This document shows positions 1-27,975 of a DNA stretch of 64,000 nt, piece by piece. Below the pieces are notes generated by a model that saw only the letters and a program-made list of their open reading frames with translations, had not been told where the DNA came from and did no database searches. The first letter of the stretch is position 1. Each line of letters begins with the position of its first letter. Location of the stretch: NCBI RefSeq assembly GCF_045037415.1, contig NZ_CP173438.1; one strand, written 5' to 3'. The translations under genes and the position numbers were made by a program. Source of the stretch: Escherichia coli (GTDB lineage Bacteria > Pseudomonadota > Gammaproteobacteria > Enterobacterales > Enterobacteriaceae).

Positions 1-903
1 CGCTCAGACATTACGGTGACAGAATGGCTTGATAAATATATTTCTATCCAAGAGGACAGGCTGCAACATAATGAACTAAGACCCAACTCCTATCGGCAAA
101 AAGGCAAACCCATTCGTCTTTTCCGTGAGCATTGTGGAATGCAACACCTCAAGGATATTACCGCACTTGATATTGCCGAAATAATTGATGCTGTAAAGGC
201 TGAAGGTCATAACAGGATGGCGCAAGTCGTGAGAATGGTGTTGATCGACGTCTTCAAAGAAGCACAACACGCAGGACATGTTCCGCCAGGATTTAACCCA
301 GCGCAGGCAACAAAACAACCGCGAAATCGAGTAAACCGCCAAAGATTGTCACTGCCCGAATGGCAGGCAATATTTGACAGCGTAAGCAGACGGCAGCCCT
401 ATTTAAAATGCGGCATGCTACTTGCTCTTGTTACTGGACAACGTTTAGGCGATATCTGCAATTTGAAATTCTCTGATATATGGGACGACATGTTGCACAT
501 TACTCAGGAAAAAACCGGTTCAAAACTTGCTATTCCGCTTAACCTGAAATGCGATGCTCTGAATATTACCCTTCGTGAAGTTATATCTCAGTGCAGGGAT
601 GCTGTTGTTAGTAAATATCTGGTCCATTACCGTCACACTACCTCTCAAGCAAACAGAGGAGACCAGGTTTCTGCAAATACTCTGACAACGGCTTTTAAAA
701 AGGCCCGGGAAAAATGTGGCATAAAATGGGAGCAAGGAACTGCGCCCACATTTCATGAGCAGCGATCTCTGTCAGAACGGTTATATCGGGAACAGGGTCT
801 GGATACGCAAAAGTTGTTAGGCCATAAATCCAGAAAAATGACCGACCGATACAATGATGATCGTGGTAAAGACTGGATTATCGTAGATATCAAAACAGCA
901 TAG
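1..903 (+). CDS. int: Lambda-family tyrosine integrase, 5'-truncated by the window edge (frame open to position 1)
   Basis: Translation ends ...HEQRSLSERLYREQGLDTQKLLGHKSRKMTDRYNDDRGKDWIIVDIKTA, closely paralleling the lambda Int C-terminus including the catalytic Tyr in the RY(N/R)DDRG motif and the HxxR box. No in-frame stop between position 1 and the GTG at 16. Confidence 0.85.
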   Translation, partial: RSDITVTEWLDKYISIQEDRLQHNELRPNSYRQKGKPIRLFREHCGMQHLKDITALDIAEIIDAVKAEGHNRMAQVVRMVLIDVFKEAQHAGHVPPGFNPAQATKQPRNRVNRQRLSLPEWQAIFDSVSRRQPYLKCGMLLALVTGQRLGDICNLKFSDIWDDMLHITQEKTGSKLAIPLNLKCDALNITLREVISQCRDAVVSKYLVHYRHTTSQANRGDQVSANTLTTAFKKAREKCGIKWEQGTAPTFHEQRSLSERLYREQGLDTQKLLGHKSRKMTDRYNDDRGKDWIIVDIKTA

Positions 904-913
904 AAAATAGCCA

Positions 914-950
914 GTTTTGGGGAAGGGTTTTGGGGAAAGTTTTGGGGAAG
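914..950. repeat. Three tandem direct repeats GTTTTGGGGAAGG / GTTTTGGGGAAAG / (G)TTTTGGGGAAG between int stop and icd terminator
   Basis: Read directly from the sequence: head-to-tail copies with 13-bp periodicity immediately downstream of the int stop codon. Confidence 0.85.
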
Positions 951-970
951 ATTTTACATCATCATAAAAC

Positions 971-993
971 AACGGGCGTGTTATACGCCCGTT
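971..993. terminator. Hairpin AACGGGCGTGTTATACGCCCGTT; likely rho-independent terminator for icd (minus strand), possibly bidirectional
   Basis: Perfect 9-bp stem with a T-rich tract following on the minus strand (TTGTTTTAT), about 25 nt downstream of the icd stop. Confidence 0.55.
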
Positions 994-1016
994 TCAATAT
1001 TTAACACATGTAGTGA

Positions 1017-2267
1017 TTACATATTCTTGATGATCGCGTCACCAAACTCTGAACATTTCAGCAGTTTAGCGCCTTCCATCAGACGTTCGAAGTCATAGGT
1101 TACGGTCTTGGCATTGATTGCGCCTTCCATACCTTTAACAATCAGGTCAGCCGCTTCAGTCCAACCCATATGGCGCAGCATCATCTCAGCGGAGAGAATA
1201 ATAGAGCCTGGGTTTACTTTGTCCTGTCCGGCATATTTCGGCGCAGTACCGTGGGTGGCTTCAAACAGGGCGCATTCGTCACCGATGTTTGCGCCAGGGG
1301 CGATACCGATACCACCAACCTGCGCTGCCAGGGCGTCAGAAATGTAGTCACCGTTCAGGTTCATACAGGCGATAACATCATATTCAGCCGGACGCAGCAG
1401 GATCTGTTGCAGGAATGCATCAGCAATCACGTCTTTAATGACGATCTCTTTGCCGGTATTCGGGTTTTTAACTTTCAGCCACGGGCCGCCGTCGATCAGT
1501 TCACCGCCAAATTCTTCACGCGCCAGTTGGTAGCCCCAGTCTTTAAACGCGCCTTCGGTGAACTTCATGATGTTGCCTTTGTGCACCAGGGTCACAGAGT
1601 CACGATCGTTAGCAATTGCGTATTCGATCGCTGCACGAACCAGACGTTTGGTGCCTTCTTCCGAACACGGCTTAATACCGATACCGCAATGTTCCGGGAA
1701 GCGAATTTTCTTCACGCCCATCTCTTCACGCAGGAATTTAATCACTTTCTCAGCGTCGGCAGAGTCTGCTTTCCATTCGATACCCGCATAAATGTCTTCC
1801 GAGTTTTCACGGAAGATAACCATATCGGTCAGTTCAGGGTGTTTAACCGGGCTTGGAGTGCCCTGATAGTAACGTACCGGACGCAGGCAGATGTAGAGAT
1901 CCAGTTCCTGGCGCAGGGCAACGTTCAGAGAGCGAATACCGCCACCAACCGGAGTGGTCAGCGGGCCTTTAATGGCAACGCGATATTCACGAATCAGATC
2001 AAGGGTTTCAGCAGGCAACCAGACGTCCTGACCATAAACCTGTGTGGATTTTTCACCGGTGTAAATTTCCATCCAGGAGATTTTACGCTCGCCTTTATAG
2101 GCTTTCTCGACTGCAGCGTCGACCACTTTCAGCATGGCTGGGGTTACATCTACACCGATTCCATCACCTTCAATGTAAGGGATAATCGGATTTTCAGGAA
2201 CGTTGAGTTTGCCGTTTTGCAGGGTGATCTTCTTGCCTTGTGCCGGAACAACTACTTTACTTTCCAT
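1017..2267 (-). CDS. icd: Isocitrate dehydrogenase (NADP)
   Basis: 416-aa [41 protein letters not shown]..., full-length match to the E. coli Icd sequence known from memory. Confidence 0.97.
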
Positions 2268-27012: not shown

Positions 27013-27975
27013 GTGATGATCAAAACGCGTTTTTCTCGCTGGCTAACATTTTTTACGTTCGCCGCTGCCGTGGCGCTGGCGCTACCGGCAAAAGCCAACA
27101 CCTGGCCGCTGCCGTCAGCAGGCAGTCGTCTGGTTGGTGAAAACAAATTTCATGTTGTGGAAAATGACGGTGGTTCTCTGGAAGCCATCGCCAAAAAATA
27201 TAACGTCGGCTTTCTCGCTCTGTTACAGGCTAACCCCGGCGTTGATCCTTACGTACCGCGCGCGGGTAGCGTGTTAACGATCCCGTTGCAAACCCTACTT
27301 CCAGACGCGCCGCGCGAAGGCATTGTGATCAACATTGCGGAGCTGCGTCTCTATTATTATCCGCCGGGAAAAAATTCGGTAACCGTATATCCCATCGGCA
27401 TTGGTCAATTAGGTGGTGACACGCTGACACCGACAATGGTGACCACCGTTTCTGACAAGCGTGCAAACCCAACCTGGACGCCAACGGCAAACATTCGCGC
27501 GCGGTATAAGGCACAGGGAATTGAGTTGCCTGCGGTAGTTCCGGCTGGACCGGATAACCCAATGGGCCATCATGCGATTCGTCTGGCGGCCTATGGCGGC
27601 GTTTATTTGCTTCACGGTACGAACGCTGATTTCGGCATTGGCATGCGGGTAAGTTCTGGCTGTATTCGTCTGCGGGATGACGATATCAAAACACTCTTTA
27701 GCCAGGTCACCCCAGGCACCAAAGTGAATATCATCAACACCCCGATTAAAGTCTCTGCCGAACCAAACGGTGCGCGTCTGGTTGAAGTACATCAGCCGCT
27801 GTCAGAGAAGATTGATGACGATCCGCAGCTGCTGCCAATTACGCTGAATAGCGCAATGCAATCATTTAAAGATGCAGCACAAACTGACGCTGAAGTGATG
27901 CAACATGTGATGGATGTCCGTTCCGGGATGCCGGTGGATGTCCGCCGTCATCAAGTGAGCCCACAAACTCTGTAA
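27013..27975 (+). CDS. ldtC: L,D-transpeptidase LdtC (YcfS)
   Basis: MIKTRFSRWLTFFTFAAAVALALPAKA signal peptide, LysM region and YkuD catalytic motif (HGTNADFGIGMRVSSGCIRL). The ORF-track 5' extension overlapping mfd is not coding. Confidence 0.9.
   Translation: MMIKTRFSRWLTFFTFAAAVALALPAKANTWPLPSAGSRLVGENKFHVVENDGGSLEAIAKKYNVGFLALLQANPGVDPYVPRAGSVLTIPLQTLLPDAPREGIVINIAELRLYYYPPGKNSVTVYPIGIGQLGGDTLTPTMVTTVSDKRANPTWTPTANIRARYKAQGIELPAVVPAGPDNPMGHHAIRLAAYGGVYLLHGTNADFGIGMRVSSGCIRLRDDDIKTLFSQVTPGTKVNIINTPIKVSAEPNGARLVEVHQPLSEKIDDDPQLLPITLNSAMQSFKDAAQTDAEVMQHVMDVRSGMPVDVRRHQVSPQTL

What the first reader, a model, noticed from the sequence alone, without database searches (positions are those of the whole stretch)
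914..950. Triple tandem GTTTTGGGGAAG repeat between int and icd
Three head-to-tail copies of a 12-13 bp G-rich motif sit just after the integrase stop and before the icd terminator hairpin. This is not a REP element and not part of any CDS. The position next to int at a prophage end fits arm-type integrase or accessory-factor (Xis/IHF-like) binding sites of an attachment site, but it could also be a G-tract regulatory element; I cannot assign it from memory.
Basis: seen in the sequence. Interest (0 to 1): 0.5.

Follow-up and report, generated by a model that had tools for sequence, protein, structure and literature searches.

The report
Phage 21 integrase arm-binding sites
The three tandem GTTTTGGGGAAG copies are the already-annotated sites on the attachment-site arm where a phage-21-type integrase docks, at the end of a prophage inserted in the E. 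coli icd gene; this is a real but ordinary, known feature.

Summary
The repeat is real: three co-oriented 12-mers at 914-925, 927-938 and 939-950, between the integrase stop (903) and the icd terminator hairpin (971-993). None of 400 simulated windows contained such an array. Window 1-1180 is 98.3% identical to phage 21. GenBank record OL657228.1 annotates the same 37 bp as "attP ... 3 subsites P1P2P3; consensus YYTTCCCCAAAA".

A fourth exact copy sits 128 bp beyond the crossover point on the other arm, both in phage 21 attP and at the far prophage end of a genome identical to the window. Prophage-free strains lack the motif.

e14, which uses the same attB with a 60%-identical integrase, has three TTTTGATAAC copies at the same offsets (-257, -244, -233) and one at +128. 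Other icd elements carry further variants.

The integrase has a lambda-type arm-DNA-binding domain (PF09003, E = 4.9e-28).

Best explanation: these are the P'-arm arm-type Int sites of a phage-21-type att site, here part of the int-proximal prophage junction (confidence 0.9). Binding itself was not tested here. Novelty: already known. Interest is low.

The parts
1..903 (+). 3' part of a phage-21-type tyrosine integrase gene. The window begins inside the gene; the prophage lies to the left, outside the window.
   Evidence: The reading frame stops at 901-903. It is 98.3% identical to phage 21 int. The full-length protein from an identical genome (L004 48021-49163) has Arm-DNA-bind_1 PF09003 (E = 4.9e-28, residues 1-71) and Phage_integrase PF00589. 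It matches lambda Int 1z1b at E = 2e-55.
914..925 (+). Arm-type site GTTTTGGGGAAG, the copy furthest from the core (P'3 by analogy with lambda numbering). It marks the outer limit of the att arm.
   Evidence: The TTTTGGGGAA core starts 257 bp before the GGCGCAGCA anchor, the same offset as e14's first TTTTGATAAC copy. Similarity between the 21-type and e14-type arms begins at this repeat.
927..938 (+). Arm-type site GTTTTGGGGAAA, the middle copy (P'2 by analogy).
   Evidence: Offset 244, identical to the offset in e14 and phage 689R6.
939..950 (+). Arm-type site GTTTTGGGGAAG, the copy nearest the core (P'1 by analogy).
   Evidence: Offset 232, against 233 in e14 and 689R6.
971..993 (-). Phage-borne intrinsic terminator hairpin for icd, lying inside the P' arm.
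   Evidence: Terminator scan: 9-bp stem with 6 G-C pairs, then GTTTTATGAT. It is annotated as a terminator in phage 21 OL657228.1.
1017..1180 (-). Phage-borne replacement 3' end of icd (about the last 54 codons plus stop), forming the core-proximal part of the P' arm.
   Evidence: Identity to free phage 21 DNA runs to window 1180 and then stops. Phage 21 annotates this stretch as an icd pseudogene. The displaced host copy (icd') is at the far prophage end in SK1144.
1172..1180 (.). GGCGCAGCA, the last bases shared by the phage attP, both prophage junctions and host icd. The strand-exchange region lies at or just left of here; the exact overlap was not determined.
   Evidence: Alignments A1 and A2 and anchor positions.

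Best explanation
The three tandem GTTTTGGGGAAG units are the P'-arm arm-type binding sites of a phage-21-type lambdoid integrase. In the window they belong to the int-proximal prophage junction, equivalent to lambda attL (B-O-P', read here right to left).

Proposed mechanism, by analogy with lambda Int. The small N-terminal domain of Int binds these 12-mers with high affinity. The C-terminal domains of the same protomers bind the core sites inside icd, 232-257 bp away, where the strands are cut and rejoined. A fourth, co-oriented copy lies 128 bp beyond the crossover on the other (P) arm, at the far end of the prophage and outside the window. DNA-bending proteins fold the arms so that Int bridges arm and core sites, building the integrative complex (on attP) or, with Xis, the excisive complex (on the two prophage junctions).

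The P' arm is unusually long because it must carry a replacement 3' end of icd plus its terminator, so that lysogens keep a working isocitrate dehydrogenase.

Shown here: identity with annotated phage 21 attP; copies in both arms at fixed offsets; phage origin; an Int with an arm-binding domain; a parallel architecture with a different motif in e14 and other icd elements. Inferred: actual binding by the Int N-domain, which sites serve integration versus excision, and how the distant P' array is brought to the core.
For: (1) Window 1-1180 is 98.3% identical to phage 21. OL657228.1 annotates the homologous 37 bp as 'integration site attP consists of 3 subsites P1P2P3; consensus YYTTCCCCAAAA'.

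(2) In phage 21 attP, TTTTGGGGAA occurs exactly four times in 4.2 kb: three in the array and one at +128 on the other side of the crossover, all co-oriented. It is the only family with more than two copies that has members in both arms; the only other cross-core matches are two 9-10-nt two-copy pairs of the kind expected by chance.

(3) In strain SK1144, 100% identical to the window, about 74 kb covering the prophage and its flanks holds exactly four perfect copies: the array, plus one copy at +128 from the crossover at the far junction.

(4) Prophage-free E. coli match only from window 964 onward and lack the motif.

(5) e14 and phage 689R6 have three copies of TTTTGATAAC at offsets 257, 244 and 233. 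For e14 one further copy was found at +128, in the K-12 far-end junction. Their P' arms align without gaps to the window from the first repeat onward and are unrelated upstream of it.

(6) In IMG/VR phage contigs carrying an icd 3' fragment, arrays of 2-3 tandem units occur at this position with variant sequences (TTTTGGGGAA, TTTTGATAA, TTTTGGTGAA, TTTTGCAGAA). L071 has its own variant again at +129. P arms from different classes are only 32-43% identical ungapped, about the level expected of unrelated AT-rich sequence, yet keep the 10-mer at +128 to +130.

(7) The Int has the lambda arm-DNA-binding domain (PF09003, E = 4.9e-28) and is homologous to lambda Int over its full length.

(8) Ints paired with TTTTGGGGAA arrays diverge to 63-76% identity in the central and catalytic domains but keep N-domain residues 18-24 (KLDKRTG) invariant. 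Ints paired with TTTTGATAAC all have LYSRKVN there.

(9) The span from the outermost P' copy to the P copy in phage 21 is 397 bp (L001 2415-2811). This fits my recollection of Wang et al. 1997 (J Bacteriol 179:5705; the citation is confirmed, but the text is not held), in which the minimal 21 attP lay between 366 and 418 bp and had to include the outermost repeated dodecamers.

(10) The lambda model of arm-type sites, the heterobivalent Int and bending proteins is described in PMC4880445.
Against: No binding or recombination experiment could be run or read here. The GenBank note is an annotator's statement, and my account of the 1997 paper is from memory.

The array lies 232-257 bp from the crossover, far more than in lambda. 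No IHF-consensus site (up to 1 mismatch) lies between the array and the core in the window, so how the P' arm folds is unexplained.

Xis co-varies with motif type just as Int does, and discriminating columns are not strongly enriched in the Int N-domain (19 of 70, against 27 of 110 and 32 of 200). The covariation is therefore confounded by shared descent.

Only one clear P-arm copy is seen, whereas lambda has two (P1 and P2). An inverted, weaker candidate (TTTTGGCTAA, 2 mismatches, L001 2747-2756) is at chance level.
Confidence: 0.9

Rival explanations
1. The repeats are binding sites for the excisionase (Xis) or another accessory DNA-bending protein rather than for Int. Lambda Xis binds three tandem direct repeats (X1, X1.5, X2) as a short filament in the same way.
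For: Three head-to-tail units at about one helical turn resemble an Xis filament site. Xis sequence co-varies with motif type: 67-78% identity within the TTTTGGGGAA group, against 36-42% for the e14 and L071 types.
Against: The motif has copies in both arms, at the two outer limits of attP. In lambda, Xis sites are confined to the P arm, next to the core-proximal region, while the tandem triple next to int is the Int P'1-P'3 set (PMC4880445, and established lambda knowledge). An Int with a PF09003 domain needs arm sites in both arms, and apart from two 9-10-nt two-copy matches no other repeat family is available. Within the TTTTGGGGAA group the Int N-domain is better conserved (80-96%) than Xis (67-78%). 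From memory, Wang et al. 1997 delimited attP in Int-only integrative assays.
Confidence: 0.05
2. The array is a G-tract regulatory element. A G-quadruplex in the int 3' UTR, or in the DNA, would affect int mRNA stability, termination or recombination.
For: The + strand carries four G-runs (GGGG, GGG, GGGG, GGGG). ViennaRNA with G-quadruplex energies predicts a three-layer quadruplex: -5.4 kcal/mol for the array alone, and -24.6 against -21.8 in context.
Against: e14 and 689R6 have a G-poor motif (TTTTGATAAC) at exactly the same positions, and it cannot form a quadruplex. The lone copy at +128 on the other arm has no partners for a quadruplex. The variants TTTTGCAGAA and TTTTGGTGAA break the G-runs yet keep the architecture.
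Confidence: 0.03
3. It is a chance or slippage-generated simple repeat with no function.
For: Copy number can vary: L077 has two units instead of three, as slippage would produce.
Against: None of 400 simulations give such an array. The sequence and position are conserved across integrases that are only 63-76% identical outside the N-domain. A matching single copy sits at a fixed distance in otherwise unrelated P arms.
Confidence: 0.02

Closest known systems
Phage 21 attP arm sites (GenBank OL657228.1 misc_feature 27563-27599; M61865.1; Wang et al. 1997, J Bacteriol 179:5705)
   Same: The sequence is the same: all three 12-mers are identical and in the same place between the int stop and the icd terminator, within 98.3% identical DNA. 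The integration site in icd is the same.
   Different: Here the site is in the integrated state, so only the P' arm is in the window. The prophage is a phage-21-type int/att module on a different lambdoid backbone: the SK1144 prophage carries sitABCD, iss and other cargo.
Lambda attP arm-type sites P'1-P'2-P'3 (and P1, P2) bound by the Int N-terminal domain
   Same: There are three co-oriented tandem sites in the int-proximal arm, immediately after the int stop, and a co-oriented site near the outer end of the other arm. The Int is homologous and has the same arm-binding domain. IHF-consensus sites lie in the P arm at +29 and +96.
   Different: The motif differs (GTTTTGGGGAAG; lambda's arm-type consensus, from memory, is C/AAGTCACTAT). 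Spacing is 12-13 bp. The array is 232-257 bp from the crossover rather than, from memory, roughly 50-90 bp, because the arm contains an icd 3' fragment and terminator. Only one clear P-arm copy is present. No recognisable IHF site lies in the P' arm.
e14 att site (E. coli K-12 cryptic prophage in icd)
   Same: It uses the same attB and the same architecture: three tandem units at -257, -244 and -233 and one at +128. The shared half-motif is GTTTTG. The Ints are 60% identical.
   Different: The unit is TTTTGATAAC instead of TTTTGGGGAAG. Int residues 17-24 differ throughout. In e14, lit, ymfE and ymfD lie between int and the array.

Membership tests
Arm-type Int binding sites of a lambda-family (heterobivalent) tyrosine integrase att site | The cognate integrase carries an N-terminal arm-DNA-binding domain. 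| tested here: met
   PF09003 Arm-DNA-bind_1, E = 4.9e-28, residues 1-71 of the full-length Int from an identical genome. Full-length homology to lambda Int 1z1b, E = 2e-55.
Arm-type Int binding sites of a lambda-family (heterobivalent) tyrosine integrase att site | A repeated motif, unlike the core sequence, is present in both arms of attP and flanks the crossover site. | tested here: met
   Three copies in the P' arm and one at +128 in the P arm of phage 21 attP. The same holds at the two junctions of the SK1144 prophage. It is the only family with more than two copies that has members in both arms.
Arm-type Int binding sites of a lambda-family (heterobivalent) tyrosine integrase att site | The sites are phage-borne and absent from the unoccupied attB. 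| tested here: met
   Prophage-free genomes match only from window 964 onward. The motif is absent from the prophage-free locus L010.
Arm-type Int binding sites of a lambda-family (heterobivalent) tyrosine integrase att site | The motif changes together with integrase specificity in related elements. | tested here: met
   TTTTGGGGAA goes with KLDKRTG at Int residues 18-24, TTTTGATAAC with LYSRKVN, and TTTTGCAGAA with FTDARTQ. Caveat: this is confounded by shared descent, and Xis co-varies too.
Arm-type Int binding sites of a lambda-family (heterobivalent) tyrosine integrase att site | Binding sites for DNA-bending proteins lie between the arm sites and the core. | tested here: inconclusive
   In the P arm, the IHF consensus recurs at +29 (15 of 36) and +96 (17 of 36) of unique arms. 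In the P' arm of the window there is none with up to 1 mismatch.
Arm-type Int binding sites of a lambda-family (heterobivalent) tyrosine integrase att site | The Int N-domain binds the sites directly, and recombination requires them. | not testable with these tools
   This needs gel-shift, footprinting and att-deletion assays. Wang et al. 1997 (PMC179457) is cited but its text is not held. My memory of it, that the minimal attP must include the outermost dodecamers, agrees with the 397-bp span measured here.
Phage 21 attP specifically | Sequence identity of int, array, terminator and icd fragment to phage 21. | tested here: met
   98.3% identity over window 1-1180 to OL657228.1 and M61865.1. 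The array is identical base for base.
REP/BIME or other host intergenic repeat | Many dispersed copies in the host chromosome, with a palindromic unit. | tested here: not met
   There is no other copy with up to 1 mismatch in the 64-kb window. The unit is not palindromic. It is absent from prophage-free strains.

The most novel reading that the evidence does not exclude
In 21-type elements only, the arm-site array may have a second function. It has the sequence of the Oxytricha telomere unit (T4G4) and four G-runs. It could fold into a G-quadruplex in the int 3' UTR, or on the unwound + strand, and so tune int mRNA fate or Int loading. A separate small lead: a single Int N-domain change (K18R) accompanies the TTTTGGGGAA to TTTTGGTGAA variant. 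If causal, this would be a one-residue, one-base recognition rule for arm-binding domains.
Probability: 0.05. Interest if true: 0.35.

Novelty: already known. Interest (0 to 1): 0.1.

Why it matters
The finding itself matters little, because it re-identifies the annotated arm-type sites of phage 21 attP. It is useful for annotation. The array marks the exact outer boundary of the att site of a very common prophage class: 1632 of 5426 complete E. coli genomes carry this int-array-icd junction. It also shows that the last 165 nt of icd and its terminator in such strains are phage DNA.

The side survey adds a modest point. Different icd-integrating elements keep the same geometry (three sites at about -257, -244 and -233, and one at +128) while changing the motif. 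This makes a natural panel for studying how arm-binding-domain specificity evolves.

Tried and rejected
(1) Retrieving Wang et al. 1997 (PMC179457, PMID 9294425) and Mehta et al. 2004 (PMC331406): neither is held. Full-text searches for phage 21, attP, arm-type and dodecamers found nothing that describes the sites. The phage 21 genome announcement does not discuss attP.

(2) An ungapped periodicity test for chance gave only 2 of 100, because the array has 13/12 spacing. I replaced it with an exact k-mer-triple test.

(3) Single-motif counts in the window are uninformative: matches with up to 2 mismatches are at chance level.

(4) The IHF consensus scan of the P' arm found nothing with up to 1 mismatch.

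(5) Using covariation to separate Int from Xis failed, because both track the motif.

(6) The GGTCAGCGG and GGACAGCGG tandem repeats in L055 and L069 were considered as a further arm-site type. They were rejected as probable host flank (B' side), because they sit at far-end junctions whose P arm carries a 21-type or e14-type site.

(7) Junctions with mismatched arm types were considered as hybrid attP sites. They were rejected: for L019, BLAST shows a 21-type prophage directly abutting e14 DNA, that is, tandem elements.

(8) A P2-like inverted copy in the phage 21 P arm (TTTTGGCTAA, 2 mismatches) is not above chance.

Full report
OBSERVATION. The window begins inside a tyrosine integrase gene whose frame stops at 901-903. 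icd lies on the minus strand at 1017-2267. Between them are three co-oriented units: GTTTTGGGGAAG (914-925), GTTTTGGGGAAA (927-938) and GTTTTGGGGAAG (939-950), with start-to-start spacing of 13 and 12 bp. Tandem Repeats Finder reports the array at 913-955 (period 13, 3.4 copies, score 65), the best-scoring array in the window. With up to one mismatch the 12-mer occurs nowhere else in 64 kb. None of 400 first-order Markov simulations of the window contained any exact 9-mer or 10-mer three times within 40 nt. A terminator-like hairpin (9-bp stem, T-rich tail on the minus strand, so serving icd) follows at 971-993.

IDENTITY. Megablast shows window 1-1180 is 98.3% identical to phage 21 (OL657228.1, M61865.1) and 98-99% identical to some 25 other lambdoid phage genomes. 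Identity to free phage DNA stops at 1180, inside icd. So the integrase, the repeat, the hairpin and the last ~165 nt of icd are all phage DNA. This is the known arrangement in which phage 21 and e14 integrate within icd and supply a replacement 3' end (PMC6379469; PMC12803456). The phage 21 genome record annotates the homologous 37 bp as 'integration site attP consists of 3 subsites P1P2P3; consensus YYTTCCCCAAAA'. It annotates the hairpin as a terminator and the icd fragment as a pseudogene. The three units are base-for-base identical between window and phage 21. In complete E. coli genomes, 1632 of 5426 carry this int-array-icd junction. Genomes without it match the window only from position 964 onward, that is, from the hairpin. 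A prophage-free locus (strain L73) contains neither motif.

In phage 21, TTTTGGGGAA occurs exactly four times in 4.2 kb around attP: the three array copies, and one co-oriented copy on the other side of the crossover. In strain SK1144, which is 100% identical to the window over 1-1200, the far junction lies about 50 kb away, next to the displaced icd' remnant. It carries one exact copy (ATTTTGGGGAAAG). About 74 kb covering the prophage and its flanks holds only those four perfect copies. Measured from the shared GGCGCAGCA at the end of the phage/host identity, the array copies start at -257, -244 and -232 and the lone copy at +128. It is the only family with more than two copies that has members in both arms; the other cross-core matches are two 9-10-nt two-copy pairs of the kind expected by chance.

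COMPARATIVE ANATOMY. e14 uses the same attB with an integrase 60% identical to this one. Immediately before its icd terminator it has three tandem copies of a different unit, TTTTGATAAC, at -257, -244 and -233. One more copy sits at +128 at its far end. Phage vB_EcoM-689R6 shows the same P'-arm array. The 21-type and e14-type P' arms align without a gap from the first repeat to the crossover and are unrelated upstream of the first repeat. In e14, the genes lit, ymfE and ymfD lie between int and the array. The array therefore marks the outer edge of the conserved att arm.

A scan of IMG/VR for a conserved icd 3' 21-mer returned 72 loci. Elements there carry two or three tandem units at this position. 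The units are TTTTGGGGAA, TTTTGATAA, TTTTGGTGAA (L011, L073) or TTTTGCAGAA (L071). Where the P arm is present it has a single unit at +128 to +130, including L071's own variant. P arms of different classes are only 32-43% identical ungapped, about the level expected of unrelated AT-rich sequence, yet keep the 10-mer. Junctions with mismatched arm types are tandem elements. L019 is a 21-type prophage abutting e14 DNA, including mcrA.

THE PROTEIN. The full-length integrase from the identical genome has the lambda arm-DNA-binding domain (PF09003, E = 4.9e-28, residues 1-71) and the catalytic domain. It matches lambda Int structures over its full length (1z1b, E = 2e-55). Across 24 integrases recovered next to arrays, those paired with TTTTGGGGAA diverge to 63-76% identity in the central and catalytic domains. 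They keep the N-domain at 80-100% identity, with residues 18-24 (KLDKRTG) invariant. Those paired with TTTTGATAAC all have LYSRKVN there. L071 has FTDARTQ. The TTTTGGTGAA pair differs from its nearest relatives by one private N-domain change, K18R. This covariation has limits. Xis tracks the motif as well, and discriminating columns are not strongly enriched in the N-domain. The covariation is consistent with Int recognition but does not prove it.

MECHANISM. The best-supported reading is that these are the P'-arm arm-type sites of a heterobivalent lambda-family integrase. The N-domain binds the 12-mers. The C-terminal domains bind core sites at the crossover inside icd. Bending proteins fold the arms so that Int bridges arm and core sites. 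The +128 copy on the other arm completes the set (lambda model: PMC4880445). The parallel with lambda is close: three co-oriented tandem sites right after the int stop, and a co-oriented site near the outer end of the other arm. IHF-consensus sites recur at +29 and +96 in P arms.

The differences are the motif, the 12-13 bp spacing and a P' array 232-257 bp from the crossover. The length arises because the arm must carry the icd 3' replacement and terminator. No IHF consensus is recognisable in that arm, so its folding is unexplained. The span from the outermost P' copy to the P copy in phage 21 is 397 bp. This agrees with my recollection of Wang et al. 1997: a minimal 21 attP between 366 and 418 bp that must include the outermost repeated dodecamers, first proposed as arm sites by Schneider in 1992. 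That paper's citation is confirmed, but its text could not be retrieved, so this point rests on memory.

RIVALS. Xis or another accessory-factor site (0.05). Tandem repeats do resemble lambda's X1-X1.5-X2. Against this, the motif has copies at both outer limits of attP, the array is in the int-proximal arm, and apart from two 9-10-nt two-copy matches no other repeat is available for an Int that carries an arm-binding domain. G-quadruplex element (0.03). A three-layer quadruplex is predicted for the + strand. However, e14 and other variants keep the architecture with G-poor units. Chance or slippage (0.02) is excluded by conservation of position and sequence across diverged elements.

VERDICT. 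The feature is already known and annotated, so interest is low. The family-wide conserved geometry with changing motifs is a tidy by-product rather than a discovery.

Noticed in passing
L019 3560-5053 (also L037, L054, L064, L077; reverse kind L039, L015): These junctions carry a 21-type array on one side of the crossover and an e14-type single site at +128 on the other, or the reverse. For L019, BLAST shows a 21-type prophage int end directly abutting the e14 far end, including mcrA. So two different elements sit in tandem at icd.
   Followed up: partly
L077 (reverse strand), around anchor 3566: A natural variant has only two GTTTTGGGGAAG units. It also has a 51-bp in-frame deletion in the icd fragment, between the two GCGCCTTCCAT direct repeats (anchor-to-core distance 92 instead of 143).
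   Followed up: no
L011 and L073 (array about 110 bp upstream of the icd anchor); Int residue 18: The variant array is TTTTGGTGAA / TTTTGGTGG / TTTTGGCGAA. Its integrase N-domain differs from the nearest TTTTGGGGAA-type integrases by a single private residue, K18R. This could be a one-residue, one-base specificity change, but there are only two closely related examples.
   Followed up: partly
L071 (array, and +129 in the P arm); P arms of L013, L027, L045: A third att type at icd has the unit TTTTGCAGAA and an integrase only about 55% identical in the N-domain. Its P arm carries its own unit at the same offset.
   Followed up: partly
P arms, +29 and +96 from GGCGCAGCA (e.g. L001 2768-2780; L005 about 19546 and 19613): IHF-consensus sites (WATCAANNNNTTR, up to 1 mismatch, minus strand) recur at two fixed offsets in 15 and 17 of 36 unique P arms that are otherwise unrelated. 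None is found in the window's P' arm (900-1180).
   Followed up: partly
L055 and L069, just upstream of the icd-type terminator: A 9-bp tandem repeat, GGTCAGCGG or GGACAGCGG, is present in 4-5 copies in what appears to be the host flank downstream of icd in a non-E. coli host.
   Followed up: no
L004 and L005 (strain SK1144; prophage left of the window, outside it): The icd prophage that ends in the window's integrase carries cargo genes: sitABCD, iss, an ompC-like porin, an inverse autotransporter and an alpha/beta hydrolase.
   Followed up: no
window 914-950: The unit contains TTTTGGGG, the Oxytricha telomere repeat. ViennaRNA predicts a three-layer G-quadruplex for the + strand transcript (-5.4 kcal/mol for the array alone).
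   Followed up: partly
window 1091-1101 and 1142-1152 (GCGCCTTCCAT, 51 bp apart, inside icd): An exact 11-bp direct repeat lies within the phage-borne icd 3' fragment. It is conserved in phage 21 and 689R6 and is the likely substrate of the deletion seen in L077.
   Followed up: no
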